NCBI GenBank assembly: GCA_964016885.1
Contig: OZ024742.1
Coordinates: 298,158,001 to 298,222,000, forward strand
Origin: Eledone cirrhosa
Lineage: Eukaryota
DNA: 64,000 nt
Direction: 5' to 3'
The position numbers and the translations under genes are program-made. Under the pieces are notes generated by a model. That model saw nothing but the letters and a program-made list of their open reading frames with translations, was not told the origin of the DNA and made no database searches. Below, piece by piece: positions 505-46,700 of this stretch (position 1 is its first letter; every line of letters starts with the position of its first letter).

Positions 505-1015
505 AGTTTTAATATAGATGAGATTCTACAGGACTAGAACTGTTTTATTCTTTAGAAATCATCAGGAATCTGGGTATCAAAAAATAAATATGGTATTTAT
601 AGGTCTCTACAAGTGGTAGGAGAGGGTGGTGAGTGAGATGGGTGTAGGTCATTGGTTGATAGAAAAGGGAATTCATTAAAAGCTAATTCTACAAAGCTAT
701 AGTTTATTTTTATTAATTTTTGTTTTTAGAGTAACAAAGGCAGACAGAATTCTATAAACAGGTTCCGGATGGCATACCATTCCTTGTCATTAAGTTTCTC
801 TTAAGCTAACAGATGTCTATAAGATCAGTGGGGGGGTCAGTGATGGTAGATAGAATTAAAGGAAAGGGAGATTCTTTAAAAGCTAAATTCATTAAGGTTC
901 TACTAAGTGACAAAGGTTTAGAGAATTCTGTAGACAGATTCAAAATACTGAGTGCATATCTTACAATTATCTTCGAACTTCTCTTAAACTAATCAACTAT
1001 ATGCCAAAAATCAAC
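505..1015 (-). mobile_element. Longer copy of the hammerhead-bearing Penelope-like non-coding element
   Basis: 505-657 is a near-identical copy of 2235-2388 and starts at the same AGTTTTAATATAG junction with (TA)n. The hammerhead GAAA is mutated to AAAA here. Unique sequence continues to about 1015 (end uncertain). Confidence 0.6.
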
Positions 1016-1034
1016 AGACACATTCACAAAAAAC

Positions 1035-1138
1035 ACACTTACTCACACACTCGCGCGCAACCATAAACACACATACACATACACATATACACACATAAAA
1101 ACACACACACATATATAAATATATTCATATACATATAT

Positions 1139-1201
<63 letters not shown>

Positions 1202-1334
1202 CACACATACATATACACACACACACACACACACACATATATACACATATATATACACTCACACACATACATACATACACACAAATATACATGTGTATAC
1301 ATATACACATATATAGACATAGAAATATATACAT

Positions 1335-1391
<57 letters not shown>

Positions 1392-1478
1392 TACATATAT
1401 ATACACACACACATATATATATATATATATACATATACACACACATACACACATATATATATATACATATATATACAT

Positions 1479-1529
<51 letters not shown>

Positions 1530-1716
1530 TATACATATACACACATATACATATATGTATATATATATGTATATATATATATATATATATACATGTTTAT
1601 TTATTTATTTAATATTGTAAATATACTCCAAATATTTGTCGAGTGCTTTTATATCAGTTATAAATATTTACTAGTTGTAACCCAACAATTTTAAATATAA
1701 CTTTCCATATATATAC

Positions 1717-1755
<39 letters not shown>

Positions 1756-1760
1756 CATAC

Positions 1761-1813
<53 letters not shown>

Positions 1814-1988
1814 TATATACATATATATATATATGTATATATATATAAGATCAAAAGATGGTTAAATGAGTTCCATGTATTTTATTATGCGCATTTCAAA
1901 AACAAATATCATATATATATACATATATATATATGTATGTATATATATTATATATATATACATATATATATATGTATATATGTATATA

Positions 1989-2019
<31 letters not shown>

Positions 2020-2026
2020 GTATATA

Positions 2027-2109
<83 letters not shown>

Positions 2110-2193
2110 ATGCAAGCGTGGAAGATGACGCTAAACGATGATGATGATGATGATACATATACATATATATACATATATATATATATATATTTA

Positions 2194-2234
<41 letters not shown>
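1035..2234. repeat. Compound (TA)n/(CA)n/(TATG)n microsatellite field with short unique islands
   Basis: Seen directly. It generates the Y/I/V/M low-complexity ORFs. Confidence 0.95.
2105..2154 (+). mobile_element. Tail-only RTE insertion (3' stem-loop plus (GAT)n)
   Basis: AACCCATGCAAGCGTGGAAGATGACGCTAAACGATGATGAT matches the 3' end of the RTE at about 10868-10930. Confidence 0.85.
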
Positions 2235-2238
<4 letters not shown>

Positions 2239-2250
2239 TTAATATAGATG

Positions 2251-2301
2251 AGATTCTACAGGACTAGAACTGTTTCATTCATTAGAAATCATCAGGAATC
2301 T
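2251..2301 (-). ncRNA. Antisense copy of the same hammerhead ribozyme motif
   Basis: Exact reverse complement of 2476-2526 in the left arm of the palindrome. Confidence 0.72.
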
Positions 2302-2475
2302 GGGTATCAAAAAAATAAATATGGTATTTATAGGTCTCTACAAGTGGTAGGAGAGGGTGGGGAGTGGGATGGGTGCAGGTCATTGGTTCAACCAATGACC
2401 TGCACCCATCCCACTCCCCACCCTCTCCTACCACTTGTAGAGACCTATAAATACCATATTTATTTTTTGATACCC

Positions 2476-2526
2476 AGATTCCTGATGATTTCTAATGAAT
2501 GAAACAGTTCTAGTCCTGTAGAATCT
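2476..2526 (+). ncRNA. Type I hammerhead ribozyme motif
   Basis: Stem I AGAUUC/GAAUCU, core CUGAUGA (2482-2488), short stem II UUC-UAAU-GAA with a U-U at its base, GAAA (2501-2504), stem III ACAG/CUGU, cleavage triplet GUA (2518-2520). Confidence 0.75.
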
Positions 2527-2700
2527 CATCTATATTAAAACTGTTATACTCTGCTATGTATTGAGTACCTTACTTACTGTGGTTACCTCCGATTCAACCC
2601 GGAATAACGTATATATATATATATGTAGATATGACTACCAATACTGGAATTGAATAATCAAGACCATAGTGGTATGTCATATATAAAATCATATATATAT

Positions 2701-2782
2701 GTCTGATGAGGACGTACTGAAAAAACAACACAGTACGTGTGAAATATATATAATAAAGTATATATTTTGTACGTCCTCATCA

Positions 2783-2785
<3 letters not shown>
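2701..2785 (+). repeat. 85-bp element with 17-bp terminal inverted repeats and a hammerhead-like core
   Basis: Ends are GTCTGATGAGGACGTAC and GTACGTCCTCATCAGAC, between (TA)n runs. Internally it reads CTGATGA, stem ACGTACTG/CAGTACGT, GAAA, TATA, TA. No convincing stem I. Confidence 0.55.
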
Positions 2786-2859
<74 letters not shown>

Positions 2860-2867
2860 CTATGTAT

Positions 2868-2979
2868 ATAGGAAAATACTCAGGACCCCGACGGCAGAGC
2901 TAAGTCATTTCGACGGCTATTACTGGAGTAAATTAAATTTTTAGCATGTTGATGATATAGCCGAACTCTTCATATATAT
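2868..2979 (-). mobile_element. Fragment related to the 3068 fold-back element
   Basis: Minus strand reads TAGCCGTCGAAATGACTTAGCTCTGCCGTCGGGGTC, versus TAGCCGTCGAAACGGCTTGAGCTCAGCTGTCGGGGTC at 3134-3170. About 2955-2979 is also an inverted copy of about 3286-3310. Confidence 0.6.
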
Positions 2980-3067
2980 GTGTATATATATATATATATA
3001 GATGTATATATATATATGTATATATGTATATATACATATATATACACATATATACATATATATATAT

Positions 3068-3261
3068 ATAGGAACCAGTAAGACCCCGACGCCTGAGTTC
3101 AAGCCGTTTCGACGGCTAATTCTGGTCCAGAATTAGCCGTCGAAACGGCTTGAGCTCAGCTGTCGGGGTCTTACTGGTTCCTATTACCCACTCTACTACC
3201 CTAAGTATTGAGTACTTTGGTGCGTTATGGTCCACCTGGTTCCTTACCACATTTCCTTCGT
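3068..3261 (+). mobile_element. Second fold-back Penelope-like element (58-bp arms plus tail) carrying the 3' half of a hammerhead
   Basis: Palindrome 3068-3184 centred on 3126, with 3 mismatches. GAAA at 3142, stem III ACGGCU/AGCUGU, GUC at 3162-3164. The tail shares GTATTGAGTAC with the 2543-2609 tail. Flanked by (TA)n. Confidence 0.65.
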
Positions 3262-3383
3262 TATATATATATATATACATACATATATATATGAAGAGTT
3301 CGGCTATATCAACACCACTTTAGAATTTTATATTTTGATTAAACTACTTTGCTTAGCACACTTTTTAATTGTTGTTGTTAATA

Positions 3384-3657
3384 TTGAAATCATATTGTTT
3401 CTTTATATAAAGACAAATTTTATTTGAACATTTATTGAATTAATCTAGCTAGTTTTGTTGTCTCTTTATGTAATTTCATTGGTTCACAATATTTATGGAG
3501 AAGTTTAGTTATAATCAATTGGTATTTCATAGCATGACTGTTTTATATCTTTTACTGTTTAGTCAGGAAGGAAAGGGGTAGTAGCTTTAAACTGGAGGCG
3601 TAGCCTAGCCCCAATGCTTGCAACAGTGTGAACTCTGCTAAAACTACCCCCAAAATA
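3384..3657 (+). repeat. About 274-bp non-coding repeat with an inverted copy at 11590-11864
   Basis: Reverse-complement match with few differences. Confidence 0.9.
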
Positions 3658-3809
3658 CATATACATATATATATATATATAATATACATATATATATATA
3701 CATATACATATATATATATATATACATATACACACATATATATATATATATATACATATACATACATATATATATATATATACACATATACATATATATA
3801 TACATATAC

Positions 3810-3841
<32 letters not shown>

Positions 3842-4006
3842 GAATACATATCTATATACATATATATATATCTATATACATATACATATACATATATATA
3901 CATTTACATATATATATACATATACATATATATACATATACACATATATATATATATACATATATATATACATATATATATATACATATACATACATATA
4001 TATATA

Positions 4007-6597
4007 CATCATCATCATCATCATCATCATTTTACGTCCGCCTTTCCCTGCTTGCAAGGGTGGAACGGGTATTATTCAGCATAGCATCTCTCCACTTGTC
4101 ACGGTCCTTCGTCATCTCCACCGTGAGCTTCAGCGATCTGAGGTCTGTTCTCACCACCTCCGCCCATGTTTTTTGTGGTCTACCTCTACCATGTCTTCCT
4201 TTAACTGGCATTACATTCTATCCCTCTCAGACACAGTTTCTCTCTCAACACATTCATTCTGGGTCGTTCATGCACATTGACACTGCACATCCAACGGAGG
4301 ATGCTTGCCTCATTTCTCTCCAGCCGTCGCCTATCCTCTGCAGTTGCTGCCCATGTCTCACTCCATGCAGCATCACGCTCCTCACACAGGCATCATATAA
4401 CCGGCCTTTCGTACGCAGGGAGAAACCCTTCTTCGTCAGCAGAGGAAGCAGCTCCCTAGACTTCTTCCAACCCATCCTTATTCTAGATACTATGGCCTCG
4501 GAACACCCCCCTCCCATGCTAATCTGATCTCCTAGGTACCAGAAGCTATCCACCACTTCTATAGCACCCGCTTGCATTTGAAAAATGCGTCTATCAATAC
4601 GACTTCTACTGTCTAATTTCCCTGTACATCTACTGCATATGTATTTCTCCCTACCTGTTAGTTTGCCTGCTATCGCACTACATCTCTTGTGTACCCAGGA
4701 TCTGCATTGTGTGCATTTTATAGAATTTATGCCAGTTCCTTTTCTGCATATCGAACATGGCCATTTCCCTGATGGAATCAGAGTTTTGTCCTCTTTTCTA
4801 CTCATCAACACTTTTCTCTTAGCTAGGTTCACTCTCAGTCCTCTTGCTTCCAACTGCTGTTTCCATAGCCAGAATTTATTCTCTAGCTCCTCTACTGATT
4901 CTGCTATAAAAACCAGATCGTCAGCATAGAGAAGTTCCCATGGACAGCCAGTCTTAAACTCCTCTGTTATGGCTTGGAGGACTATAATGAACAAGAGCGA
5001 GCTGAGAACTGAACCTTGATGTACTCCTATTTGTATCTGGAATTCCTCACTAAACTCCATTCCTACCCTGACATTACTGACAGTACCTCTGTACAAAGTT
5101 GCACTGTCCTCACAAGCCATTCCTCAACACCTAGTTTCCTTAGAGACCACTAGATGACAGATCGGGGTACCCTATCAAAGGCCTTCTCTAGGTTAACAAA
5201 GGCTAAGTATAGTGGCTTGTAATTGTCTCACGAAGAAGAAGGCATCTGTTGTACTCTTCCCAGGCACAAACGAAACTGCATCTCATTATAGTTTGAACCT
5301 TTCTCTAATTCGTTGTGCCACTTTCATAACCTGATCCATCAGTTTTATACCCCTATAATTGCTCCTCTCCAGAGCATCTCCTTTATCTTTGTAGCAATTT
5401 ATGAGAATACTGCTGCACCAGTTTTGGGGTATGACACCACCATATATAGCCTGATTGATGATGCATGCAACCATTTTATTGCCTACGTCCCCTGATGCCT
5501 TCAGCATCTCAGAAACTATCTCCGATAGTCCAGCAGCCTTACCATTTTTCATTTCCTTAATCGCCTCTTGGACCCTATATTCGTCAATCTCAATAGCTGA
5601 TCCCTCTGTCGGATCTACTGAGGGTAATTTCTCTCTCTCCTATTCGTTCTCCACATTCATCAGTCTCTCATAATGACATTTCCAGGCCCCCTTTTTCTGA
5701 TCATTCGTGACACTAAGTACACCGGCATCATTCCGGACACATTTATCTCCAACATCATCCTGATTTACATTGACACACTGCCTTGCAATGTGGAACACCG
5801 CACGTCTCTGATTGTCCCGTCGCAGAACATAGGCAAACCTCCTACTCTCAGCCTCCCTGTGTGCTAAGCACACCTGATGTCTAGCTTCTCTCTTAGCGGC
5901 TGTATATCCTTCTCTACTCCCACCCTTTTTCCAAATCCCACCCTTTTTCCAAGCCTTCCATGCTAGTCTTTTGTCTCTAATTCTCTAATGGCCTTATCTA
6001 CTGTGCTGTTCCACCACCAGGTCACTTTCTGTCTGGTTGGGGCTCCGCTCCAGCCACAAGTTTCATCAGTAGCCTGCAGTAAGTTGTCACGTAAGAAATT
6101 CCTGTTATTATCTGCCATATGTCTCTAAATCGTCTTCTTTTTCATCATACACATCTTGAAGGGTTTTCCTAAATTTGTATTTTAGTGAAAGGTCTTTTAG
6201 CTTCCAGACCTTTCTTCTCCACACCTTCCTGTATGTCTCATTCCATCTCTTGCTTTCTGAGATATCACTAACGATTAACCTATGCTGTGGGGTACATTCT
6301 TCCCCAAGGTATGCCTTGGTATTAGACACTATCTGCCTGTCCTGCTGCCTAACTAGCTAACTAGTAAGAAGTCAATCTGGCTTATATGCTCGCCAGATTT
6401 GTAGGTTATTAGGTGGTTGGCAGGTTTCTGGAGGTTAGTGTTGCAAATAGTTAGTGTACTTGCATCACAAAATTCAAGAAGTCTCACTCCTTCTTCGTTT
6501 CTTGAGCTGTAACCGTGCCCACCATGTACCCCAGTGTAACCATCCTGGAGCTGTCCAACATGATCATTGAAGTCCCCTGCTAGCATAACGATGTCAT
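4007..6597 (-). mobile_element. 5'-truncated, degraded RTE LINE (end of APE endonuclease, RT, PHD finger, (GAT)n tail)
   Basis: Fragmented ORFs contain AGDFNDHVG, QIDFLLV, NYRGIKL, GVHQGSVLS, LLYADD and CSIC...HKRC...CSRC, with several frameshifts and stops. (CAT)n at 4007-4030. Confidence 0.95.
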
Positions 6598-6619
6598 ATA
6601 TACATATATATATATATAC

Positions 6620-6740
6620 ACATCTGCTTGAGCATGACATGGTCACCTGACCTGGCATTTCTTACAACTGGACAACGCGTCTAACCCATGCATGCATGGA
6701 AAAATGGACGTTAAATGGTGATGATGATGATGATGATGAT
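6620..6740 (+). mobile_element. RTE-type 3' tail fragment
   Basis: CTAACCCATGCATGCATGGAAAAATGGACGTTAAATG(GAT)n. Confidence 0.75.
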
Positions 6741-6760
6741 ACATACATATATATATATAC

Positions 6761-6792
<32 letters not shown>

Positions 6793-6794
6793 CA

Positions 6795-7101
6795 TATCAT
6801 CATCATTTCATTTTACGTCCGCTTTTTCCCTGCTTGCAAGGGTGGGACTTGTTTTCTACAGCTGGATGCCGTTCCTAACACCAACCTCATTTACAGTGAG
6901 TGCTGGGTGCTTTTTTTCCGTGGCCCCTACACAACCACTTTGCAGTGGAATGATAGGGACCCCAGTCCCTATCATCTCATTTCTACAGCTGAGTAAACTG
7001 GAGCAATGTGAAATAAAGTGTCTTGCTCAAGGAAACAACACATTACCCGGTCCAACCTTTCGATTGCAAGGCCAATGTTCTAACCACTAAGCCATGTGCC
7101 T

Positions 7102-7102
<1 letters not shown>
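6795..7102 (-). mobile_element. tRNA-derived SINE with RTE-type tail (B box deleted)
   Basis: Inverted copy of 10942-11285 that lacks the segment containing GTTCAATTC. Confidence 0.88.
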
Positions 7103-7147
<45 letters not shown>

Positions 7148-7205
7148 GGATCTCATACAATCCTAACCTTCCAGCTAGCTACCCAACACCCCTCCCACCC
7201 GCCCC

Positions 7206-7301
7206 CACGCACCACCATTGTTATTACGTGGACCAATCATAAGCCAGAGCCCTCACGCATCACCATTATTATTACGCGGACCAATCATAAGCCAGAGGCC
7301 T
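7206..7301 (+). promoter_or_regulatory. Two tandem 48-bp monomers with CCAAT boxes in the RTE 5'UTR (putative internal promoter)
   Basis: Units start at 7206 and 7254 and each contains GGACCAATCA. The function is inferred. Confidence 0.45.
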
Positions 7302-7406: not shown

Positions 7407-10400
7407 ATGCCAAAGATAAAGACAAATTCACCTCGTGGATGAGAATCCGAGCACTCCTCTTTGTTTCGACCGCGGACGGCTAACATAACCCCACCTCCCC
7501 CCACCCCCCAACGCCCCCACCCTCCAAACGCAATCCAAAACTTCAGAGTTGGTACCATAAATGTAGGCACCCTAAAGGGTCGTGCTAACGAGGTTTTAGA
7601 AATGCTTGAACGTAAGGAGGTCGATGTTTGTTGTATTCAAGAGACCAGGTGGAGGGGTGGGTCTGCTAGATTCATTGAGGGTAAAAAACGATGTTATAAG
7701 CTTTTCTGGGTGGGAAACGACGATGGGCTGCGTGGAGTAGGAATCATGGTAGCAGAAAAGTGGGCAGATAAGATAATAGACGTAAATAGAGTGAACGACA
7801 GAATAATTAAAATACGACTTGTCCTCAATAGAACTACGGTGACAGTAATATCTGCGTATGCACCCCAATCCGGACTGCCCGGCACTATAAAAGACAGATT
7901 CTATGAGACACTGATGCTCACTACCCGCCAAATAACCGACAGTGACTATAGAATTATTGCAGGCGACCTAAATGGTCACGTTGGACAACATTGTGACGGC
8001 TACGATGAAATCCATGGAGGATATGGGTTTGGAACTAGAAATCAGGAAGGCTCCAGAATCCTGGAATTCTGTGACGCAAATAACCTAACTATCTGTAACA
8101 CTAACTTCAAAAAACGTGACAATCACCTGATCACCTATAGATCCGGGGAACACACAAGCCAGGTAGATTATATCCTTACCAGATGACGTGACAGAGTGTC
8201 TGTTGTAAACACTAAATCCCTCCCCCATGAATAATGCACCTCCCAACATAGACTGATAATTAGCGACCTCATAGTCAGGACGAGACATACTCGACAGCAG
8301 AAGAGGACTATCCTCAGGAGAAAAATATGGAAGCTAAAGGACCCCACAGCCAGAAATAAATTTCAAAGCATATTACTTGATGCTTTCAACAGTAAGGAAG
8401 AGCATTTAGAGTCGGACAATATAGAGGGACAGTGGGAATTTCTGAAAGCAAACCTGCTGATGGCGACAGACGAAGTCTGTGGCTGGAGCAGGCCTGTAGG
8501 CAGGAGGAGAGTAACATGGTGGTAGAACAGTAAGGTGGAGGGGTCAATTAAGGCCAAAAAGCAGGCTTGGAAAGTATGGCGGGATGGGGGAAGTAGAGAA
8601 GACTATCAAGTGGTCAGGAGGGAAGCTAGGAGCCAAGTGTACTTCGCAAGAAGGGAAGCAGAGGAGAGAAAGTTCAAGCATGTTCTACAACGCGAGGACC
8701 AAAAACGTGAGGTGTTCAGGATTGCTAGGCAATGCGTCAAGGAAAACCGTGATATTGTCGGGGAGAAGTGTGTACTTAATGATGACAGCGTACTTGCCAT
8801 CACCGACGCTGATAAGAAGGTAGCTTGGAAGTGTCACTATGAAAGGCTACTAAATGAGGAGAATAAATGGGAGAAAGACAGTCTCCCCCACATCGACCCA
8901 ATAGAGGGACCAGCAGTGTTAGTCGAGGGGAGTATAATAAGTAAGGCAATCAAGGATATGAAGACGGGTAAGGCGGCTGGGCCTTCGGAAATAGTTGCGG
9001 AGATGCTGAAGGCATCTGGCACGGTGGGACACACCATGGTCACCCGCATAGTTAACCAAGTCGTACAGAATGGGGTTGTTCCGAAGGACTGGCATAGCAG
9101 CATCATCGTTAACTGTTATAAGGGTAAAGGAGATGCTCTAGATAGAAGTAACTATAGAGGCATTAAATTAATCGACCAGGTCATGAAGGTCACGGAAAAA
9201 GTAATAGCGCAACTAATCAGAGAGAGAATTGACCTAGATAAAATGCAGTTCGGGTTTGTGTCAGGCAAAAGTACCACAGACGCTCTTTTCATTGTACGAC
9301 AACTACAGGAGAAGTACCTAGCTAAAGGTAAACCCCTTTACTTAGCTTTTGTCGACTTGGAGAAAGCCTTCGACAGAGACCCCCGCTCCATTATCTGGTG
9401 GGCTCTTAGAAAACTAGGTGTTGACGAATGGCTTGTGAGAGCTATACAAGCCATGTATAAAGAAACAGTCAGCAAGGTTAGAATTAACAATGAATATAGT
9501 GAAGAGTTTAGCGTAAAAGTTGGCGTCCATCAGGGCTCTGTTCTCAGCCCCCTACTATTTATTATTGCCCTTCAGGCTATAACAGAGGAGTTCAAGACCG
9601 GCTGCCCATGGGAACTCCTATACGCAGACGACCTGACACTCATAGCGGAATCAATGGCCGAGCTAGAGAAGAAATTCCAAACATGGAAGAACGGCCTAGA
9701 ATCAAAAGGACTTAAAATTAACCTGGCTAAGACTAAAGTTCTAGTTTGTAAGAAAGAAAATAAGGCGGCGGTCCCTTCTGGGAAATGGTCATGCTCGGTG
9801 TGTAGGAAAGGCGTAGGTAGAAACTCCATTTTATGTCCTAAATGCAAAGTATGGGTGCATAAAAGATGTAGTGGGATCACAGGTAAGCTAACTAAGAACA
9901 TAGATTTTATATGTGGCCGGTGCTCTGGTGCAATAAGTAGCAGCAAGTGCCCACAAAATACTAGCTCTTTCAATTGCGCAGAGGGTTCTATAGAAATAGT
10001 GGACAGCTTCCGTTACCTTGGCGATAAAATCAGCAGTGGGGGAGGGTGCTCTGAAAGTACCGTAGCTAGAGTCAGAACTGGTTGGAAAAAGTTCAGAGAG
10101 CTTATACCACTATTAGCTGCTAAAGGGTTCTCCCTAAAAATGAAAGGCAGGTTGTATGATGCCTGCATACGAACAGCAATGTTGCATGGCAGTGAGACCT
10201 GTGTGCAGAGGATATATGCAGACTAGAGAGGAACGAAGCTTGCATGCTCTGCTGGATGTGTAACAGTAATATACGTGAACGGCAAAGCATAAACGAACTA
10301 AGGAAAAAATTAGAAATAAGAGGGATCAGATGTTGTTTACTCGAGAGAAGGCTACGTTGGTATGGACACGTGATGCGCATGAAAGTCGATAGCTGTATAA

Positions 10401-12100: not shown

Positions 12101-12292
12101 ATAATTGTTTCTACTTTTGGCACAAGGCCAGCAATTACCCAGTGCATTGCTGGTACTTTATTTTATCGACCCCGTAAGGATGAAAGGCAAAGTTAACCTC
12201 GGCGGAATTTGAACTCAGAATGACAAGGGCCATAACTCTATGCGTCAAAGCATGGCGTCCGACCCTCTACCGATACTGCCAATCCACCGCCC
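12101..12292 (-). mobile_element. SINE family B (tRNA-like head, GCCTTTCATCC...GGGGTCGATAAAATAAAGTACCAG core, (ATT)n tail)
   Basis: Near-identical inverted copy of 23324-23518. Confidence 0.88.
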
Positions 12293-23323: not shown

Positions 23324-23518
23324 GGGCGGTGGATTGGCAGTATCGGTAGAGGGTTGGACGCCATGCTTTGACGTATAGAGTTATGGCCCTTGCCATTCTG
23401 AGTTCAAATCCCGTCGAGGTTAGCTTTGCCTTTCATCCTTACGGGGTCGATAAAATAAAGTACCAGTAATGCACTGGATAATTGCTGGCCTTGTGCCAAA
23501 AGTAGAAACAATTATTAT
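23324..23518 (+). mobile_element. SINE family B, intact copy (others at 32107-32310, 48628-48840, 49595-49750, 58449-58540, 60676-60855)
   Basis: TGGCAGTATCGG A-box-like motif, GTTCAAATCC B box, conserved central domain and GTAGAAACAATTATT tail. Confidence 0.9.
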
Positions 23519-24632: not shown

Positions 24633-24679
24633 GTCACTAAGGTTTCAAACGTTATAGGCACTAATAATCATCAGGTAAC
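24633..24679 (-). ncRNA. Degenerate minimal hammerhead motif (Penelope-type)
   Basis: Minus strand reads GUUAC-CUGAUGA-(loose stem II)-GAAA-CCU-UA-GUGAC. Confidence 0.45.
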
Positions 24680-25597: not shown

Positions 25598-26310
25598 TAT
25601 CTATCTAGGGCGGGTAAAATTCCTGAGATCCATGGATGAGTCCTCTCCAGCGGTCTCTGTCCCTCTTCGCCGCTGCCATGTCCTGTGTCTCCAAGAGACC
25701 AGTGTCTGACCTTAACGCATCAACATATGTCAACCTCGGTCTTCCTCTTCCAGTGTGTCCATGCAGGGGCTCCCACTGGAGCACTGAGTGTAATGTCAAC
25801 TCTGAATGTCAGTGAGCATGCATGTCCAGCTAACCTCAGTCTCCTCTGTGCTACTTTCAAGCTGACATTTGGGAGGCTCTCATACAGCTCTGAGTTCTTC
25901 ATCCTCAGTGTATACTGATTAATGTTCAGAGCCATCCTCAGCATTCTCGTGTAGCACCCATCCACCATCCGAGTGAGTTTCTTGGTCATTGTCCAAGTCT
26001 CAGATCTGTACAGCAGCACAGACTCCACTACAGCAACGAAGAGATGGATCTTCAGATCTTTACCAATGTCTGACTTCCACACAGATCTCAAACTGTGGCA
26101 CACCGCCCAGACTTTGCTCTTCCTCTTGACCACATCATCTTCTGTATTCCCAATCTTTGCTTCCAGATACAGGAAGTCCTCAACCAATTCTAGCGGCTTC
26201 CCACCTACATTAGTAATCTTCTCTGGCTTCTTAATATTCTCTACCAGATACTTCGTCTTAATCTCATTCATTCTCAGCCCCACACTCATTGACACAGTTT
26301 TCAACTCCTC
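25598..26310 (-). mobile_element. 3' part of a second RTE-like LINE family
   Basis: GLRMNEIKTKY...DFLYL...VESVLLYRSETWT...DGCYTRMLRMALNI...RRLRLAGH...LQWEPLHG...RGRP. Confidence 0.9.
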
Positions 26311-27312
26311 TGTCTCCTACACAGATATATATGAACACGACAGTTGTTATTTACTAAATTTCCCATTGGTTAGCCTAAGGCCATACTAGAAAACTCTTGC
26401 CAAAGTTCCAATTGAGGATATAGTTCTTTGACCCATCTAGTCTCAGAGTGTAACAACCCATCCAACCCATACTAGCATTGAAAACAGACATATGATGAGT
26501 GTGATGATGATGATGAAATCCTTCTGTGAACAAAATATCAAATCACTATTTCACTAAACAAATATGACAGCACAATATTATCTATTTAACTTAAGAAGAA
26601 GAATATTTTTTTAATACTTCCTGATTTTCTTTTAGCTCTGTTGACATTATCCATTCTTACTAAATTAGAGAAATACAAAAAAATATTTCTAAGTCTGTGT
26701 CAGAGGTTATAATGTTCACCTCAAGATTTATCTTCTATCTCCCTTATATTCAACTATAACCAAGGGTTGTAGTCCTGAAAAGCATGATTGACTGTAAGTG
26801 TAGTCTTCTACTTCAGACATGACTAGTCTTTTGACTTTCTATAAAAGAAATATTTATTAGTACTTTGTCACATATAATAAATAACTTAATCCTCTCTTTA
26901 CTACTAGATGACCCAGTGGAAATCCTATGTCTTAATTAGAAACAACCATGAAATATCAAAAATCAATATATATATTGGTGAGGACGGTGAAATTGGACAC
27001 ATCGCCTCTGAAACCTATGCTAATGGAGGTCACCCACCTGGTCAAATCTCACCACATTTGCCATACATTTAAAACATCAGACCTTCTTTTTCTATCCTCA
27101 GAGATGGCTTTTCAGTTGTGTCGAAGATATGACAACCATGCTAATGCTGGTATCATGATAAAATGTACTTAGTAAAGTGCAGGACTGTATGTAAGCAAGA
27201 TGCAAGTTCCCAGGTCAGGAGCCTTGCTTGAGTACTGACTTGTTCTGGGAAAATGGACCTTAAATGATGTTGATGATTATATGTATGTATAATCGTCACC
27301 ATCATTTATATA

Positions 27313-32004: not shown

Positions 32005-33138
32005 ATATATATAGCTATCTATCAAAGAGGGTTCAACTTGAACAATGGCCTTTTTATTAATAATTAATATTTCATATCGTTATTATTACTATTATTATTA
32101 TTATTATCGATAAAATAAAGTACCAGTAATGCACTGGGTAATTGCTGGCCTTGTGCCTAAAGTAGAAACAATTATTATTATTATTATTAGGTCAAGTTTG
32201 CCTTTTGTCGTTTCAGGTTTGAAAAAATAAAGTACTTATGAAGAACTGGGGTTTATTTGACTTTCCCCTCCCACCAAATTGCTGACCTTGTGCCGAAATT
32301 AGAAAACATTATTTTAACAGTATATAATAATCACATGTAAAATACAAAATAAATCAGTTTTACTTACAAAGGATTTTTATAACACAATTTCTTCTGGGTA
32401 TTTCAGCTTATGATTTTGTCCTGTTATTACATTTATTTCTGTTTTGATTTATGAAGAGCTATATTTCCATGTCCCCTTTGTTATTTAGCCTGAGAAATAC
32501 TTGTTCTGATATTATAGTCTTTTATATTTCAGCATCTCTAGTTTAGACTTGTAAACTGTTTTGATTGATAAACAGTTCCTGAACTGATAAAACAACTGAG
32601 TCTCACAGAAGTTATAGAAGCCATAAAGAACTCATTAATCTACAGGTGTTGATTGAAACTAAAAGATAATTTAAGTATTTCAGAGAAAGTTTACTTCATA
32701 TTAAATGTCTCTGGTGAGTTCATACCAAATATTTATAAAACAATTTATAATCCATGTTATGGGAGAAGATCTGAACTAACAAGTGATAGCAAAGATGAAC
32801 CCTTACATTTAAGCTACAATTGATGAAAATAGTGTTGTCAACTTTTTCTGGTATAAAACCACAGTAGACTGTATAGGAAGATATATATGCAGACAGAAAC
32901 AAAGTCTGTGTTTAACTTAATACTTGCAAATGTGGCTAATGCATATGCATGCATTCAAAAGCTAATAAATGGTTATAGATATATGCTTTTCTTAAATGTA
33001 AAGGCCATGGTGGCAGACATGGTAATAAAATGAAATATTGTCCTCAATGAAAATAAATGCTGCTAACAGCTTCAGTGTTGGATACAAAGCTGCATACAAA
33101 CATATTGTCTAGTAATGGAAATACAGTGCAATTAACTG

Positions 33139-36643: not shown

Positions 36644-36706
<63 letters not shown>

Positions 36707-38610: not shown

Positions 38611-40344
38611 ACAATTTATTATCTATCTATCTAAAATTTTTGACATAATATACTATTCTCCTTACTTTCTTTTTTGAGTTGCATTGATTTTGTGAACATA
38701 CATTCAGAAATCCTATAGTTTTTTGCCAATTAATTTGATTTACTGTTGGCCACAGGTTTATTCCATGTTCTGCCATGTCAATTAGATATATTGATATTTC
38801 TACCTTTTAAAGAAGCAAATAAACTATAATTTATTTCTCTTGTTTCAATAGCCACCTATTAGATTTTGTTATATGAATATCTCACTCCCTCCTGACTAAG
38901 ATTTAGGGTTGATGATATCACTACTGGTTGGTATGTTAGTAGAACCTATTCTTCTTTAATTAATTTTTGAACTATTTAGCCAAGAGGGCATAGCAGTGTG
39001 CATAACCCTTTTACAGATCTCTACAACTAATAGGAAAGAGAGGGAGAGAAAGGTATCTTCAAAATAGAGACCTGTTTTGAATGTTTTCAATAGAGTGTAC
39101 TCCATTAAAGTTCCCAAAAGGCCAGATGATAGTGTTAAACAGGGTGAGGGTGATGGATTAAGTCTATCACTGGAGTAGGCCAGGACAGGACTTGAACTCC
39201 GAATATAAAGAGCTGGAACAAATATCACAAACCATCTTATTCAAAGTTCTAATTATTCTGTTAAACCTTCAATTAGTACTTTATCTATCAACTCCATTAA
39301 GAATAAATGTAAAGTAATCATGGCTTAATTTAAACTGAGAATGCAAGAAACTAGAATATATACTACAAGGCATTTATTTCTACACTTGTAATACTTCTGC
39401 CAAAAAAATGTTCTCTTTTTTTCAGATCTTATAAAGTGTTTCAAAATATTCTTGAGATTGGACATTTTCTGCTGTTATACTGAGTCCTGTGATACTATCT
39501 CAAATTATTTATTTATACATATTAGAAGCACCCTCCATGATGTGGAAAGTCAGGTCATGAAACTCCACGTTTATAATAGAATGATTTTTATTTATACACT
39601 CCAAATGTGTTTATGTATACATACTTTACTGTGTGTTTAAAAATTGTTATTTTTCTGCAGACAACTGATTGAACTACTTCACAATCCCCTAAAATCGAAT
39701 TCCACTGGAACACATCTTGATTTATAAAATGAAAGTCAATTGGAAAATAGCTTTCACATTACAGAAGCCTGTATTCCAGCAAAATATTCAGGCATGCAAT
39801 GATTCTGTAATGCAGAGGATGTTTGCACATACATATAACTCATTTGATTTCAGTTTTCTGTTGTCACCATACAATTTATATATTAGTTTTCATATATATG
39901 ATAACTCTTGACTTTATGCTGTTAGAGCACCATATATCCTACATAGTGGAAGATTAATAAATACCAGTCATTAACAGACAGATTCCATTTCAAGCTAGCT
40001 ACTGTTGAGACCTCCAGTATCCTCAGTCTTGAGACTGCCACTGTCTTCCACCAAATCAGGATTAGAAAGTAGCCCTATAAAGTGGAATGTTTGATGTAGC
40101 AGATATCACCAACCTTTCCTTGTAGCAACGTTTTTTGCTATCATGCTTGGAGTTTAACTTAGATATGCTGTTCAAATGAAGGTATGGATTGTGCTAGCTG
40201 TTGTTTTGCTTTTGATGTAGTAGTTACAAATTTTAGGAAGTATGTTTTAGAGATGTAATTTATGTATTGAACTTTTCAGGTTTGCTTTTCTTCATAGGAT
40301 GGCATCCAAGTCCATTTCTTAGGCAAACATTTTCAATATTTATT

Positions 40345-40980
40345 TTAACCATTCTGTTATCAAACTGCCTGAAACTGCCTCTAGTTCTATGATAGAAAAC
40401 TGATTGTTTTAAAGTGTGTAGATTTAAATGTAACCCTTTTATTATAAATTTATCTAAGAAAATTTTGCTTCAAACACCATCATAAAAATCAAACGTTAAT
40501 TATATTACTAGATCCTTCAATTTTTTTTATTTTCAAATTATTTGAAAGTCATAAATATAGTAAGGGAAGAGTGAAGTTTCATATTAAAGAGAATAGTTCA
40601 GTAAGTTCTTTTTAAAATGTGTCTTCTTGCTATCTGTGAGCAATTGATTTATGGTAACAGCTGTTGTATGCAAATATATATCAATAATCATTGATGTCAT
40701 CAAATCTTTATCAATGAATAGGTGAGTATTTCTTTTGATACTAAACTGCCTGAAACTACCTCTGGTTTTATGGTACAAAACTATTTGTTTTAAAATATTT
40801 ATATTTATCGAAAAGCCTTTCATCATGTAAGAACATGTTAAATTCTGCTCCGAACATCAGCTTGATTATGAGAAAGTTAGTTATATTACTAAATCACTCT
40901 CAATTTTTTTTTTTTTTTTTTTCAAAAGTTGCTTGTAAATAATAAGCAGTGCATTTCATTAGAAATATAGTAACATAAGG
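40345..40980 (+). mobile_element. Two same-orientation copies of TTAA MITE family 1 (about 40345-40565 and 40730-40980)
   Basis: Both contain AAACTGCCTGAAACTRCCTCT...TATG. Confidence 0.72.
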
Positions 40981-41969
40981 CTGAAGGAAAGGTATTTTTC
41001 ATAATGCTACTTTTAAAAGAATATTTGTCAATTACAATGTCAAATTGTTTTCTAGTTTTGATATATTTTATGATTTTCCCTGAATTAAGAATGTCTTCTC
41101 AATATCAGCTACTGAATCATAATGTTAATATCACATTGTAATTTTGCCAATAACCAATTAGTGATTTCTTTCTTTGCTGTTTAATGAAGTAGGGATGGGC
41201 AGTGCTCATAGACCTTTCCAGAGCCTCTGAGACAATTAGTGGGAAATAGAATGGACATCTGCCAATTTTGACAGTGTGTATTAAATGTTCCAGTATAATT
41301 CTCAGGAGGATTCAGTGTGAAAAAAGGTATGACAAGGCTCACCTTTTAAATTACAAGCACAGATATCGAATGGGATTCCATGCAGTTTCTCTCTACTCAA
41401 TTTCATTCAGAAATGTTGGGTTAAACTGTGGCTGTGGTAAATGACACTTGGAATGGAGGAAGGAATGTAACCCAAACTGTAAGTCTGACCTGAATGCTTG
41501 CACAGGAGTGGGTTCCACTAAGGGCCTTCAATGACCAATGACCATGTGGTGTTCCCAAATAGGCTGCAGGGGGGTTTTAACTCAGAACTTAAATGGCCAG
41601 AACAAATACCGCAAGGTATTTCATCTGATACTCTGGACTAATCCACTGTTCTGGACAGGTACTTTATTTTATTGACTTTAAAGGGATAAAGGTGAAGTTG
41701 ACTTTGGTGGACTTTGAACTCAGAGTGTAGAGAACTGGCATAAATACCACAAGGCGTTTGTCCTACACTGATTCGATTAATTAACTGCTAGAATGATTCA
41801 CACCAATAGTATTTATAAGCTTTCTATAATAGATCTCAGGACAATTCGTGGGTTCAATGTAATATTCTAAATAGTTTCCTTGGCACAAAAAACTTGGATA
41901 ATAACTGAAATAATATGATTGTCAATACAAGTGACCGAATTGGGGTGCCTCCAAAGGGCCTTTGAAGTA

Positions 41970-42250
41970 ACATTACTTCGATTTAAAAATCATAGCTCTG
42001 ATACTATGGGCATGTGGTTAGAATGTCTCAGGAAAGAATCACTGGACAAATTTTATAGGCAAAGCCAACTGAAAAGTGACCCAGGGGTCGTCCCCAAGCA
42101 AGATGTTTGGATAACATCTATGAGCTTGGCTGGTCTTACTTGGGGATCCAGTTGGACCTGTTGGAGACAGTTGCTTCTGAGAGAACCCACAGGAAGGAGT
42201 GTCTGAGGACTATGCCCCTATGACCCTCACAGGAATAAGTGGGTAAAAAA
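41970..42250 (+). mobile_element. Decayed Expander/Rex3-like RTE 3' end
   Basis: YYGHVVRMSQERITGQIL*AKPTEK*PRGRPQARCLDNI. Confidence 0.65.
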
Positions 42251-42685
42251 GAAGTTTACCTAACACAAATATATGGTGTTGCTCTTTCTGTTGTCAGTTT
42301 AACCTATGTTTCTTATCACAAACTTAAAATGAGAAATGATCTTCAAATTTCATCTGCACCCTGAGTTTAAATCTCACAAGATTAATTTTGCCTTTTACTT
42401 TTACAGAGTCAATGAAATAAAGTACTAGTCCTGTGTGGTTATTTAGTGGAATTGTTAGAACATGCATAGATTAATTACCAGGTTATTTTACTATGTTCCA
42501 AACTCAGTGATTCTGGAAATATTGGCCATGGATAACCAAAAATGTAGCACCAATAACAAGCACGTGCATCAAAGATTACAAAAATAAATAGAAAATAATA
42601 TTGCAGATTGAAGCACTATAGGATGACGATCAACCTACTCCCCCTCATCATTAACATCTTCAGCATCCTCATCATCATTACATCA

Positions 42686-42901
42686 TGATAAAAGCCGACC
42701 TTACCCAATTATACCTCTCAAAGGCGATGACACACGACCGTGAACTCTGGCATCACGCAGTAATACAGAGTACCTGACCTCCCATGGGTACAAGCTGAAG
42801 CATATAGACAATATGCCCCCACACCCTCCCACTGCAAGGTGGTCGTGGAGGTGCCACGGCAAAAAAGCACCCAGCCCACACTGTAAAGTGGACGTGTAGG
42901 C
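42686..42901 (+). repeat. 216-bp inverted duplicate of 43182-43397
   Basis: One mismatch seen by eye. ORFs 42701/42718 mirror 43167/43054. Confidence 0.95.
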
Positions 42902-42981
42902 ATGCTGGCATGGTTTAGAAAGTTCATCATAATCCAAAACAGCTTATACGTTTTATATTTTAATATAGTTTCTATTGGTAG

Positions 42982-44090
42982 ATCATCATCATCAGCATCA
43001 CCGTTTTACGTCCGTTCTTCCACGCTAACATGGGTTAGACGGGTTGTCCTGTTGTGGGCAGTGTCTGGTCGGCAGACCATGCCTTGCTCATACAGGAAGT
43101 GATTTGGCTTGATTTCTACAGCTGGATGCCCTTCCTAACACCAACCTCATTTACAGTGAGTGTTGGGTGCTTTTTCGTGGCGCCTACACGTCCACTTTAC
43201 AGTGTGGGCTGGGTGCTTTTTTGCCGTGGCACCTCCACGACCACCTTGCAGTGGGAGGGTGTGGGGGCATATTGTCTATATGCTTCAGCTTGTACCCATG
43301 GGAGGTCAGGTACTCTGTATTACTGCGTGATGCCAGAGTTCACGGTCGTGTGTCATCGCCTTTGAGAGGTGTAATTGGGTAAGGTCGGCTTTTATCACCT
43401 CATCCCAGGTCATCTTGTGTCTCCCCACTCCGCGGTTTCCATCGACTTCTAGTGCTCTGCACCTTTTTATGCACCTGTCATCCTTCATATGCATCACATG
43501 TCCATACCAACGCAACCGCCTCTCCTGCACACAGCATTTGATTCCTCTTATGCTCAGTCTCTCTCTCAATTCATTTATGCTTTGTCATTCGCGTATATTA
43601 CTATTACACATCCATTGGAGCATGCAGGCTTCGTTTCTCTCTAATCTACGTAAGTCTTCCACCTTCAGTGCCCAGGTCTCACTACCATGTAACATTGCTG
43701 TTTGGATACACGCATCATACAGTCTGCCTTTCATTTTGAAGGAGAAGCCTTTTGCAGCTAGCAGTGGTAGTAGTTCCCTGAACTTCTTCCATCCCGTTCT
43801 TACCCTAGTTATTGTACTTTCTGAACACCCACCTCCTCGGTCACATAGGTAGAGGAAGCTGTCTACTGTCTCTACAGAGCCCTTCCAGAGATTGGTGGTA
43901 CTTGTTTCCTGTGGCTGTTTGCTGCTTGCTGTCCCAGTACAGCTGCTGCATGTGAAGCCTACATTCTTAATTAAGCTTCCTGAGATCCCGCTACATCTCT
44001 TGTGTACCCATTGTTTGCATTTGGGGCAGAGAATGGAGTTCATACCTACACCTTTCCTACATACTGAGCAAGGCCATTTCCCTGAGATAC
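42982..44090 (-). mobile_element. 5'-truncated RTE LINE (PHD finger, thumb, modular 3'UTR, (GAT)n tail)
   Basis: GKWPCSVCRKGVGMNSILCPKCKQWVHKRC...CSSC...RLRWYGHV, and tail CCCATGTTAGCGTGG...GGACGTAAAAC. Confidence 0.95.
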
Positions 44091-44159
44091 TCTTCCTAAT
44101 GCCAACCAATTTGCAAAGTGTACCGGGTGCAGTTTTTCATGGCACCAGCATTACCACAT

Positions 44160-46700
44160 TATACTACCTCTATATGAATTATTTGAAGTAAAGACTAAAG
44201 ATGACAAACAACTGCAAACAATGTTACAGAAAATGTGTTGATTTGCTAAGGAAATTGGCATGTAATTTAGTTCAGGAAATTGTACTAAGGGAACCTTGAT
44301 GATAGAAAAATTAATTAAAAGCACTCATTTTTAAACAAAGACAAAGAGAAATGAGATTTAGACCAAACACAGAGTTAGACGTTCTTAGAATTAATGAATA
44401 AGACAGATTCCAACACATTCATATGAAAAAAGAAATTAGGAAGGAATATTCTAAATAAATTTGATTAATGCTATAAACTTAGCTAAATGTCCTGAATAAT
44501 TTAATACACAGCAATATTCTAGCTGTTCCTTTAATAAGTTATAGTTATGATATTATTGCAAGCTAAATGAATTAGCAAGGCTAGATAGGAGAACAAGGAA
44601 ACTAATGAATGCATTTAGAATACACACCCCAAGGTCAACATTACCTTTCATCCATTCAGAGTTGATAAAATAAAGTTCCAAGAGGGGAAAATTGAGAATT
44701 GTTAGAGTCTCAAGCAGCATTTTTTCTAGTTCTTTATATTCTGAGTTCAAATCCTGCTGTGACCTACTTGTGTGGCTATATAATCTATCACTTAGTGTAC
44801 CTTGTCTTTGGATGGCTTAAAAAGCATTCAGGTTAAATCTTTAGTTTGAGGATAACATTCTCCTTCCCTTCCACTGGTCTTCGAGGACCTGAAAAGGGTC
44901 ATGGACAATGCCCTTCCCGCCTGACTAAACATCATCATCACCATTTAACGTACATTTTTCCATGTTGGCTTGGGTTAGACGAGTTTTTCTGTTGTAAGCA
45001 ATGCCAGGTCAGGAGTCCATGTCTTGCTCATACAGAACTAATTTTGGCTTGGTTTCTACTGATGAATGTCCTTCCTAGTGCCAGTAAATTGAAAACCAAA
45101 CTAAACCACAAAATTTCACAAATAAAAGAAGGTAATGGTCTTCTACAGTAGATTGTTTTCAAATAATCTACTGCAGGGCTACAAAATTATATAAAGAATA
45201 CAGAACTAAACAAAAAACATTTTTAATAATACCATCAAATATAAAATAGGAGCTATCATTGGTGTTATGAAAAGCAAACAACTGTAGAAACTATGACAAA
45301 ATTTGACATGTATGAACATCATATTACTCTCAATCTATCTAGTGGGGCAGAACTCCAAATAGGAACAAACTCAAATTCTGTTGACCCATCCAACACATGC
45401 CTGCACACACTCACATTATATATATTCATATATATGAAGTTTTAGGCCTAGAGGCTCTTTAGGCTGGTGCTTATCCCAGTTTCCTTGGTGGCTGTAAATA
45501 CATGAAGCCCCTCCTGGACAGAAAATTAGCTCATCAAAAAAATTAAACCCCAACTACAGTTGACAGTAATTTTCAGCTGAGAATACTTGGGGAATGTGAA
45601 ATGAAGTGTTTTGCTCAAGAACACAATACAAAACCTGCTCCAAGAATCAAGCCCACAACATTATGATTGTAAGACCCAAACCCTAACAACTAGTCCATAC
45701 ACCATAAATATATATATTCTGTAATATGGAAGGGTGTCCAGTGATAGAAAACAAGCCAAAATACAGATCCATATGAGTAAAACATGACCACCTGACCTAA
45801 CTTGTTTCTCAATGTGACAACCCATCTAACTCATGCATGAAAAAATAGACATGATGATGATATATTTTATATATTTGTACTTTGGGAGGGTCATGCTGCC
45901 AATAAAAAACACACGCACCTGTTGGTTTTCACTTTAATTTATTATAAATTACCAGTTGGCTGGCTGGTTCAATAACTGGATGGTTGTTTATATATTGTCA
46001 AAGCTCTTTCATTACACATTATGTGACCTCCTCAGTGACTGGGTTTTTATTTTGTGTCCCTCCTCTGTTCTGTCCTACACCATCTTGTTTTTGACAATAT
46101 ATAAACAACCATCTGGTTATCGAACCAGCCAACCAACCGGAAATTTATAATAAATTGAAGTGAAAACCAACAGGTGCGTTTGTTTTATTGGAAGCATGAC
46201 CCTTCCATAGTATAACAATATCTGTTTCAACATATGTTTTCGGATAAGAAATCTTGCAAGACAAATTTAAAAACGATATATTTATATATATATATATATA
46301 TATATCCATAAACACTCACACACATATATATCTATACTTGCACACACATACATATATGATGATATGATGAGAGAGAGAATAGAGGGAGAGAGAGAAGATA
46401 GAGACAGAAGAGAGAGATGTGGTAGAAAACTATAAAGTACACCCACAAGGATGTACAAATGCACACTACAAACTTCTTCAGAGTGTGAGACAGTGACAAT
46501 AATCTGAGACATGTAAATTCATGCGGACAGGAAGATTAGTAAGTCACATCAGATATAATTACTGATTAGAATCGATGTATTGATCAGTTGATATCTGGAT
46601 GACAGTATAAATCTTAAAGAAAGGGTGAAACTATCTAAATATATAGATCTGGAAATAGAGATAACCAAAATGTGGGGATTGATAACACAATGTCTCATAA
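44160..46700 (+). mobile_element. Decayed R4/Dong LINE broken into pieces by later insertions
   Basis: LYMNYLK..DDKQLQTML..FAKEIGM*F (about 44165-44270), AVPLISYSY (about 44520), EGNGLLQ (about 45130) and KERVKLSKYIDLEIEITKMWG (about 46615-46680) occur in the expected order. Confidence 0.62.
45871..46276. mobile_element. Third fold-back Penelope-like element (about 125-bp inverted arms plus tail ending in (TA)n)
   Basis: About 45878-46002 is inverted at 46090-46212. A minimal hammerhead-like motif lies on the minus strand at 45997-46039. Confidence 0.62.

What the first reader, a model, noticed from the sequence alone, without database searches (positions are those of the whole stretch)
505..46276. 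A recurring architecture: hammerhead-bearing fold-back mini-elements, mostly in (TA)n, with unrelated sequences
Several elements with unrelated primary sequence share one plan: inverted arm, forward arm, unpaired 65-80-bp tail, (TA)n (2235-2609, 3068-3261, 45871-46276). A smaller relative lies at 2701-2785 and a lone motif at 24633. Each has whole or partial hammerhead motifs, and none encodes a protein. Two tails share GTATTGAGTAC (2558-2568 and 3205-3215). Inference: a multi-family system of non-autonomous ribozyme retroelements mobilised in trans by Penelope-type RT/GIY-YIG, possibly seeding or expanding TA microsatellites. This is my best candidate for an undescribed system in the window.
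Basis: partly seen in the sequence, partly recalled or inferred. Interest (0 to 1): 0.8.

Follow-up and report, generated by a model that had tools for sequence, protein, structure and literature searches.

The report
Penelope-element stubs piled in TA repeats
These hairpin-shaped snippets are real, but they are the cut-short ends of four families of a known kind of jumping gene (Penelope-like elements) whose protein-coding parent copies lie elsewhere in the same genome; the hairpin is likely built anew each time a copy lands in a TA repeat.

Summary
The architecture is real but known. Each element is the 3' end (pseudo-LTR with hammerhead, plus tail) of its own protein-coding Penelope-like element (PLE) family. 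2390-2609 is 220/220 identical to the front of ORF-bearing copies; one full copy has an intact 713-aa RT + GIY-YIG ORF with Hydra-clade motifs. The elements at 3068, 2631 and 45871 also link in cis to RT/GIY-YIG frames. Exact-match counts: 9,066, 29,652, 3,556 and 646. Inverted 5'-truncated copy, one-sided tail, hammerhead and (TA)n preference are all described for PLEs, including an Octopus Hydra family (PMC8557442). Junctions differ from copy to copy, so the hairpins do not spread as hairpins. The lone 24633 motif is unsupported. Extras not found in my literature searches: short arms stop at a family-specific wall at an initiator-like motif (likely the RNA 5' end), inverted arms can be longer than forward arms (fits two priming events), tails are 66-104 nt, and a tail motif RTHGAGTRCY is shared across Hydra-type families. 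New members of a known kind; interest low.

The parts
505..1033 (-). Family A 3' end (pseudo-LTR and 3' UTR), tail-less, hammerhead GAAA changed to AAAA; probably runs on through the simple-repeat part of the 3' UTR to about 1600
   Evidence: 95.7% to the 3' end of full-length copy L032; longer 78% match through simple repeats; motif listing
1603..1706 (+).
   Evidence: 9 loci match at 76-89%, several with a type I hammerhead directly upstream; ORF link not tested
1846..1912 (-).
   Evidence: 16 loci match; several show inverted arm, forward arm, hammerhead and tail in TA; ORF link not tested
2235..2388 (-). Family A inverted arm, starting at the tail-less end (site 1)
   Evidence: 99.4% to the forward arm and to ORF-linked copies
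2251..2301 (-). Mirror copy of the family A type I hammerhead
   Evidence: strict descriptor hit
2390..2543 (+). Family A forward arm (part of the pseudo-LTR)
   Evidence: with the tail, 220/220 identical to L211, L221, L229
2476..2526 (+). Type I hammerhead: 6-bp stem I, CUGAUGA, U.U-closed 3-bp stem II, GAAA, stem III, UA cleavage site (cleavage predicted, not shown)
   Evidence: same U.U layout as the Hydra magnipapillata rows of the paper's table
2544..2609 (+). Family A tail (66 nt); in ORF-bearing copies it runs straight into the 5' UTR, 47 nt before the ATG; holds GTATTGAGTAC at 2558-2568
2631..2769 (+). Family D1 piece: starts at the family's 5' wall, holds a decayed hammerhead (core at 2703), no tail
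   Evidence: 93.5% to L304
2770..2785 (-). Short inverted snippet of the D1 hammerhead core
2869..2967 (-). Older inverted family B piece, tail-less
   Evidence: 81% to L064
3068..3125 (-). Family B inverted arm
3126..3181 (+). Family B forward arm; only the 3' half of a hammerhead that has a U3-A8 core in long copies
   Evidence: 98.5% (arm plus tail) to ORF-linked L066
3182..3261 (+). Family B tail (80 nt), GTATTGAGTAC at 3205-3215; runs into the ORF in L269
45875..46093 (-). Family C inverted arm, about 90 nt longer than the forward arm; minimal hammerhead at about 45997-46039
   Evidence: 85% to L141; relaxed descriptor hit at 46035
46090..46210 (+). Family C forward arm
   Evidence: 88% to L141
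46211..46276 (+). Family C tail (66 nt), followed by (TA)15; lacks the shared tail motif

Best explanation
The elements are 5'-truncated insertions of four protein-coding Penelope-like element families (three Hydra-type, one Neptune/Nematis-like), and each hairpin is likely a dead-end product made at the moment of insertion rather than a self-propagating mini-element. Shown: family identity, ORF links in cis, two fixed 3' ends per family (with and without tail), TA flanks, copy-specific junctions, and a family-specific 5' wall. Inferred: the element's RT/GIY-YIG protein nicks both strands of a (TA)n target; one nick primes reverse transcription at the tail end (site 2), the other at the tail start (site 1), both internal to the RNA; the two cDNAs are joined head to head by microhomology or a few untemplated bases, giving inverted arm + forward arm + one-sided tail. 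Inferred with less support: most short arms are run-off copies that stop at the 5' end of the element's RNA, which would lie 55-65 nt (A, B) or 135-170 nt (D) above site 1.
For: Parent: L032 is pLTR-tail-ORF-3'UTR-pLTR with a 713-aa ORF; 71 exact tail-into-ORF junctions, and in 21 of 30 such loci the ORF runs to residue 347 or beyond; 2390-2609 is 220/220 identical to three of them. Family B: L064 and L066 have the same fold-back plan with kilobase arms that include RT and endonuclease; tail runs into ORF in L269. Family D: ORF pieces upstream of the pseudo-LTR in L132, L133, L135 (D2) and L275, L280, L282, L304, L306 among others (D1). Family C: RT, thumb and GIY-YIG frames directly upstream in L141 and L138 (2 of 10 extended loci). 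Adjacent inverted arm starting at site 1 in 35 of 69 A loci and 37 of 49 B loci; TA just behind the tail in 62 of 69 and 48 of 49, against 306 of 2000 background windows. Inverted arm exceeds the forward arm by more than 10 nt in 6 of 35 and 9 of 37 and in 45871-46276 itself. 5' ends pile up within about 10 nt below a wall in 53 of 96 (A), 40 of 60 (B), 26 of 34 (D1) arms; the wall sits at CCAGATT, T(C/T)AGT and TCACT. Literature: two internal RT start sites bracketing the tail, both strands cut and extended, predicted dimer (PMC11167929); internal promoter with initiator in the pseudo-LTR (PMC2377424).
Against: No RNA data: transcription start, expression and ribozyme cleavage are all unshown. 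Arms are within 10 nt of each other in 21 of 35 (A) and 24 of 37 (B) cases, which a simple fold-back also gives; unequal arms could come from later deletion at the centre of a palindrome. The wall is weak in D2 (8 of 30) and broad in C (11 of 21, no initiator-like motif); initiator-like words occur at 1-2 of 100 positions, and two of the four matches are partial. Long D1 copies are not rare genome-wide (295 exact hits against 542 for the downstream word). Only family A yielded an intact ORF; B, C and D frames seen are broken. Clade calls rest on motifs, not on a tree. Loci were the first ones listed, mostly on contig C1, and chosen by exact words, so they favour young copies.
Confidence: 0.85

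Rival explanations
1. Same PLE origin, but the inverted arm is made by fold-back or self-priming on the first cDNA (or on an antisense template), and unequal arms arise by later deletions.
For: Near-equal arms are the commonest class (21 of 35, 24 of 37); short palindromes at junctions; self-priming was proposed in PMC3846280 (passages).
Against: 15 of 72 inverted arms are more than 10 nt longer than their forward arm while still ending at the wall; the inverted arm starts at a second fixed end that tail-less single copies also use.
Confidence: 0.3
2. One reading: short non-autonomous ribozyme elements (retrozyme- or SINE-like) that are transcribed on their own and mobilised in trans.
For: Short copies outnumber ORF-linked ones more than 100-fold (9,066 against 71); fixed 5' wall at an initiator-like motif could be a promoter of a short RNA; animal retrozymes are reported as PLE derivatives (bioRxiv 10.64898/2026.07.22.740005, part 1); trans-mobilisation by pseudo-LTRs is reported (PMC3846280).
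Against: Sequence identical to the parent's end; junctions nearly all different; no head-to-tail arrays in the window; many short copies lack half of the hammerhead (family B); in the one PLE studied in vitro the RNA must extend beyond the RT start sites (PMC11167929), which short copies do not.
Confidence: 0.1
3. The 5' wall is a reverse-transcriptase stop at RNA structure (the hammerhead or a hairpin), or a length at which palindromes become stable, not the RNA start.
For: In A the wall coincides with the 5' strand of stem I; A and B arms have similar length (medians 62 and 57).
Against: In B the wall lies in the stem II loop and in D about 60 nt upstream of the hammerhead, so it does not track the ribozyme; D arms are more than twice as long.
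Confidence: 0.3
4. Assembly or library artefacts (fold-back chimeras in low-complexity DNA).
For: Palindromes in TA runs are hard to sequence; only 2 strand-changing joints appeared in other runs.
Against: Arms differ by point changes, start at a fixed site, leave a one-sided tail and recur in four families; tail and pseudo-LTR pieces ending in TA occur in three other public runs, one under a second organism label.
Confidence: 0.02

Closest known systems
Hydra clade of C-terminal EN+ Penelope-like elements (Craig et al. 2021, PMC8557442; includes Hydra-1_Obim from Octopus bimaculoides and Penelope-13_HM)
   Same: CxCX5C linker, DKT, RW(R/K), CxxC and CxH in the endonuclease, canonical type I hammerhead near the 3' end, (TA)n targets; Penelope-13_HM is annotated with a 5'-truncated inverted copy and a hammerhead on both strands.
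   Different: Not the same family as Hydra-1_Obim (N-terminus and hammerhead differ by eye; five short words from these families, four DNA and one peptide, absent from the supplement text, where long runs are cut). Longer: 6.0 kb for L032 with a simple-repeat 3' UTR against under 3 kb. Family B has a U3-A8 core and long stems II and III.
General PLE insertion unit: pseudo-LTR, adjacent inverted 5'-truncated copy, optional one-sided tail (PMC8557442 Fig. 2; PMC3846280)
   Same: Exactly the plan of the finding.
   Different: Tails here are 66-104 nt against the 30-40 bp given in those papers; most copies are so short that only the pseudo-LTR remains.
Minimal and variant hammerheads of PLEs (Cervera and de la Pena 2014, PMC4209133)
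   Same: Pairs of hammerheads 100-700 bp apart on opposite strands ascribed to truncated PLEs; U3-A8 core variant; extra base before stem II; short helix III.
   Different: Families A and B have stable helix III stems, more like the monomeric fungal and protist type.
Neptune/Nematis-type PLEs
   Same: [quoted passage not shown]
   Different: Only broken frames seen; no tree; clade tentative.
Animal non-LTR retrozymes (PMC7229834, listing only; bioRxiv 10.64898/2026.07.22.740005, part 1 of 5)
   Same: Non-coding, type I hammerhead, related to PLE pseudo-LTRs.
   Different: Retrozymes are defined as head-to-tail tandem arrays with a hammerhead in each unit; these are single head-to-head insertions identical to a parent's end.

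Membership tests
EN+ Penelope-like elements | Single ORF with RT and C-terminal GIY-YIG endonuclease linked in cis | tested here: met
   A: intact 713-aa ORF with YRDD and IVY..YIG; Pfam GIY-YIG only weak, E 0.019; Atlas neighbours at 0.96-0.98 carry GIY-YIG, RVT_1, HTH_animal. B, C, D: broken frames in cis.
EN+ Penelope-like elements | Pseudo-LTRs (partial tandem) flanking the ORF | tested here: met
   L032 has the same sequence at both ends; 24 of 30 tail-into-ORF loci have 43-560 nt of it upstream.
EN+ Penelope-like elements | Adjacent inverted 5'-truncated copy and one-sided tail | tested here: met
   35 of 69 A loci, 37 of 49 B loci; tail longer than published.
EN+ Penelope-like elements | Hammerhead motif in the pseudo-LTR | tested here: met
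   Complete motifs in all four families among the fetched loci (91, 8, 18 and 80 pattern matches; the last pools D1, D2 and relatives).
EN+ Penelope-like elements | Hammerhead self-cleavage | not testable with these tools
   No RNA run on record; needs a cleavage assay.
Hydra clade | CxCX5C linker, DKT, RWK-type motif, CxxC and CxH around the catalytic E and N | tested here: met
   A: CNCLNKEAC 611, DKT 161, RWR 83 (R for K), CDLC 711, CMH 739; B and D2 show CxCX5C and CxxC, B also DKT and RWR.
Hydra clade | No CCHH motif inside GIY-YIG | tested here: inconclusive
Hydra clade | (TA)n insertion preference | tested here: met
   62 of 69 and 48 of 49 against 306 of 2000.
Hydra clade | Length under 3 kb | tested here: not met
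   L032 is 6,033 nt because of a long simple-repeat 3' UTR; the paper says 'generally short'.
Hydra clade | Phylogenetic placement of RT | not tested
   Reference sequences lie only in the paper's supplement, partly cut, and were not brought into a tree.
Non-LTR retrozymes | Head-to-tail tandem units, each with a hammerhead | tested here: not met
   No such array in the window; copies are single or head-to-head.
Non-LTR retrozymes | Abundant circular RNA | not testable with these tools
   No RNA holder on record.
Already annotated Dfam/Repbase family | Match to a curated consensus | not testable with these tools
   Neither library is available here.

The most novel reading that the evidence does not exclude
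The stubs are a genomic record of the unresolved PLE mechanism: a dimeric RT primes twice on opposite target strands at two start sites near the 5' end of its own mRNA, and tens of thousands of strong-stop run-off products, ending at the capped RNA start, are joined head to head; a conserved tail motif (RTHGAGTRCY, shared by Hydra-type families here and, with one mismatch, a coral family) is the cis signal for initiation. The intact family A copy would let this be tested directly.
Probability: 0.35. Interest if true: 0.55.

Novelty: new member of a known kind. Interest (0 to 1): 0.22.

Why it matters
As a system it is not new. Its value is as material: young, very high-copy Hydra-type PLE families with an intact ORF, in a clade with no biochemistry, and a junction record that bears on how PLEs make inverted copies and tails, which the papers read here call unresolved. 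A side point, untested: tens of thousands of near-perfect short palindromes could supply double-stranded RNA for A-to-I editing, which is reported as exceptionally high in octopus and linked to a palindromic repeat in frog (PMC5625713, passages); that this genome is an octopus is my inference from size and repeat content, not a tool result.

Tried and rejected
Rfam scan: no hammerhead family at E<=1, only hairpin-driven microRNA noise. Genome DNA search with 2440-2608 returned nothing because common words are skipped; patterns worked. The exact 24-mer from the 45871 tail found only itself (diverged copy). 24633 motif: rejected as a member. No PLE ORF inside the window apart from the tail itself; the window's long frames are unrelated APE-type LINEs. 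PDB sequence search: nothing meaningful. Sequencing runs: no RNA holder listed; the one guessed-RNA run laid nothing; neither says anything about expression. First arm-length script picked spurious simple-repeat matches and was replaced, which still inflates some forward arms by palindromic overlap and has at least one spurious inverted call (L009); L010 and L045 were dropped as duplicates of neighbours. An extra G at the 5' wall (copied cap) is seen in several D1 copies including 2630 but could not be separated from junction sequence; not counted as evidence. A few forward arms end near the predicted cleavage site (19-24 nt in 4 of 69 A; 16-17 nt in 3 of 49 B); no null was run. Whether TA runs pre-exist or grow on insertion was not tested (no empty alleles). 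Protein database, structure prediction and complex tools were not used, as they would not change the verdict.
Full report
Observation. The hammerhead in 2235-2609 is well above chance (2 strict hits against 0.02 in 100 shuffles); a relaxed descriptor gives 5 against 0.66, three of them in elements. Rfam does not detect them, and two of them fold no better than shuffles. 2701-2785 is part of a larger piece, 2631-2769 plus a short inverted snippet; the 24633 motif has no support. The window lies in a 3.0-Gb genome; I infer a cephalopod from size and repeats, which no call confirms.

Family A (2235-2609, 505-1033). A 25-nt tail word has 9,066 exact genomic matches, reversed control 0. In 2 of the first 30 loci the tail runs on into coding sequence. 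L032 is a whole element: short pseudo-LTR with hammerhead, tail, a 713-aa ORF with RT and GIY-YIG motifs, a long 3' UTR, the pseudo-LTR again, then TA with no tail. The tail-into-ORF junction has 71 exact matches; in 21 of 30 fetched loci the ORF continues to residue 347 or further. The window's forward arm plus tail is 220/220 identical to three of them.

Families B, C, D. B (3068-3261): 29,652 matches to a 27-nt tail word. L064 and L066 show the same fold-back plan with RT and endonuclease sequence inside, and the tail runs into an ORF in L269, 1 of 5 loci. Long copies carry a complete hammerhead; of 8 pattern matches 5 have a U3-A8 core and 3 a C3-A8 mismatch, and the L066 motif folds as a three-way junction (z -2.08). 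C (45871-46276): 646 matches; 2 of 10 extended loci reach broken RT/GIY-YIG frames with a CX4CxxC linker. D (2631-2785): 3,556 matches pooling subfamilies D1 and D2; both link to ORF pieces upstream.

Architecture in numbers (69 A and 49 B loci, first listed on C1, one duplicate dropped from each). An inverted arm starting at the tail-less end adjoins 35 and 37 copies. TA follows the tail in 62 and 48 (background 306 of 2000) and precedes the inverted arm in 31 of 35 and 34 of 37. Inverted arms are 40-70 nt in 31 of 35 and 31 of 37. They are within 10 nt of the forward arm in 21 and 24, longer in 6 and 9, shorter in 8 and 4. Junction strings are 13 distinct of 16 in A and 15 of 15 in B after setting aside 3 unfolded long copies. 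So the hairpin is not inherited as a unit.

The wall. Arm 5' ends pile up just below one position in A (53 of 96), B (40 of 60) and D1 (26 of 34), weakly in D2 (8 of 30) and broadly in C (11 of 21) (sets include ORF-linked loci and a few double counts). It lies at stem I in A, in the stem II loop in B and 60 nt upstream of the ribozyme in D, each time at an initiator-like word; such words are common enough (1-2 per 100 positions) that this is suggestive only. Eight of 30 ORF-linked A loci also start 43-91 nt above site 1, 16 much further up.

Tail motif. RTHGAGTRCY is in the tails of A, B, D1, D2 and E, one mismatch off in the F copy measured (exact in another F copy), and absent from C; background 2 in 118,600 nt. 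The motif was defined after looking at these tails. The published coral consensus Hydra-2_Amil ends with a one-mismatch version; the paper's motif section does not mention it.

Mechanism. PMC11167929 (parts 1-2 of 4 read) shows a PLE protein that cuts and extends both target strands, starts reverse transcription at two internal sites that bracket the tail, is predicted to be a dimer and does not need ribozyme cleavage. Two primings, at site 2 and site 1, joined head to head account for all parts here, including inverted arms longer than forward arms. Fold-back with later deletion remains a live rival. Run-off at the RNA start is my reading of the wall; PMC2377424 (passages) places Penelope's start and initiator inside the pseudo-LTR.

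Comparison. PMC8557442 (passages, sections 11 and 20, supplement part 2 and look-ups) describes the inverted 5'-truncated copy, the 30-40 bp one-sided tail, hammerheads and (TA)n targeting, and defines the Hydra clade, whose motifs A, B and D2 show; it lists an Octopus family and one Hydra family with an attached inverted copy. PMC4209133 (parts 1-2 of 4) reports opposite-strand hammerhead pairs 100-700 bp apart, U3-A8 cores and the extra base before stem II. PMC3846280 (passages) reports head-to-head palindromic junctions and proposes self-priming. The bioRxiv retrozyme preprint (part 1 of 5) defines retrozymes as tandem arrays. Searches found no paper on these families, on twin priming or strong-stop run-off in PLEs, or on the tail motif; the library lacks subscription journals, Dfam and Repbase. 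Earlier AI notes from other genomes reach the same filing; they are leads, not support.

Other samples. Tail and pseudo-LTR are covered about a thousand times deeper than the ORF in two public contig sets (summed depth, not copy number), and pieces ending in TA occur under a second organism label.

Verdict. Real, known in kind, new families. Interest 0.22; the mechanistic reading would deserve about 0.55 at a probability near 0.35.

Noticed in passing
window 444-3320: Pieces of at least five PLE-type families (A twice, B twice, D1, E, F) are packed into one 3-kb TA-rich stretch; fetched loci show the same piling of families next to each other.
   Followed up: partly
window 1-436, 4254-5123, 7443-10226, 43300-44140: Several copies of APE-endonuclease/RT LINEs, including a 97% inverted pair 1-436 and 9108-9543 and a 566-aa open RT frame at 8526-10226.
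   Followed up: no
window 42686-42901 and 43182-43397: A 216-nt inverted repeat, 100% complementary, 280 nt apart; not examined.
   Followed up: no
window 12101-12289, 23327-23516, 60675-60856, 48635-48770, 58445-58537, 32107-32176 and others: A dispersed repeat of about 190 nt with many copies in the window, also inserted in L132; looks like a SINE, not tested.
   Followed up: no
window 3288-3330: Forward piece matching the inverted 2952-2972 end and two places just upstream of the window (L307); may be the other half of an older insertion split by TA and the 3068 element.
   Followed up: partly
L032 (G000:C1:14204000-14212000, minus strand): Intact family A copy; its 3' UTR holds about 3 kb of mixed TA/CA simple repeat, so this family carries microsatellite with it, and window 1050-1600 may be such carried sequence.
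   Followed up: partly
L225/L226, L231, L233/L234: Short rearranged family A copies in which tail plus ORF start are duplicated or inverted inside the junction, suggesting template jumps.
   Followed up: no
L147:1995-4527, L065:7084-9000, L131:3876-4985: Further Hydra-like ORFs at 36-48% identity to family A; the genome holds more families than those examined.
   Followed up: no
window 25720-26316: Fragment of a different LINE-like frame, with a related copy in L031.
   Followed up: no
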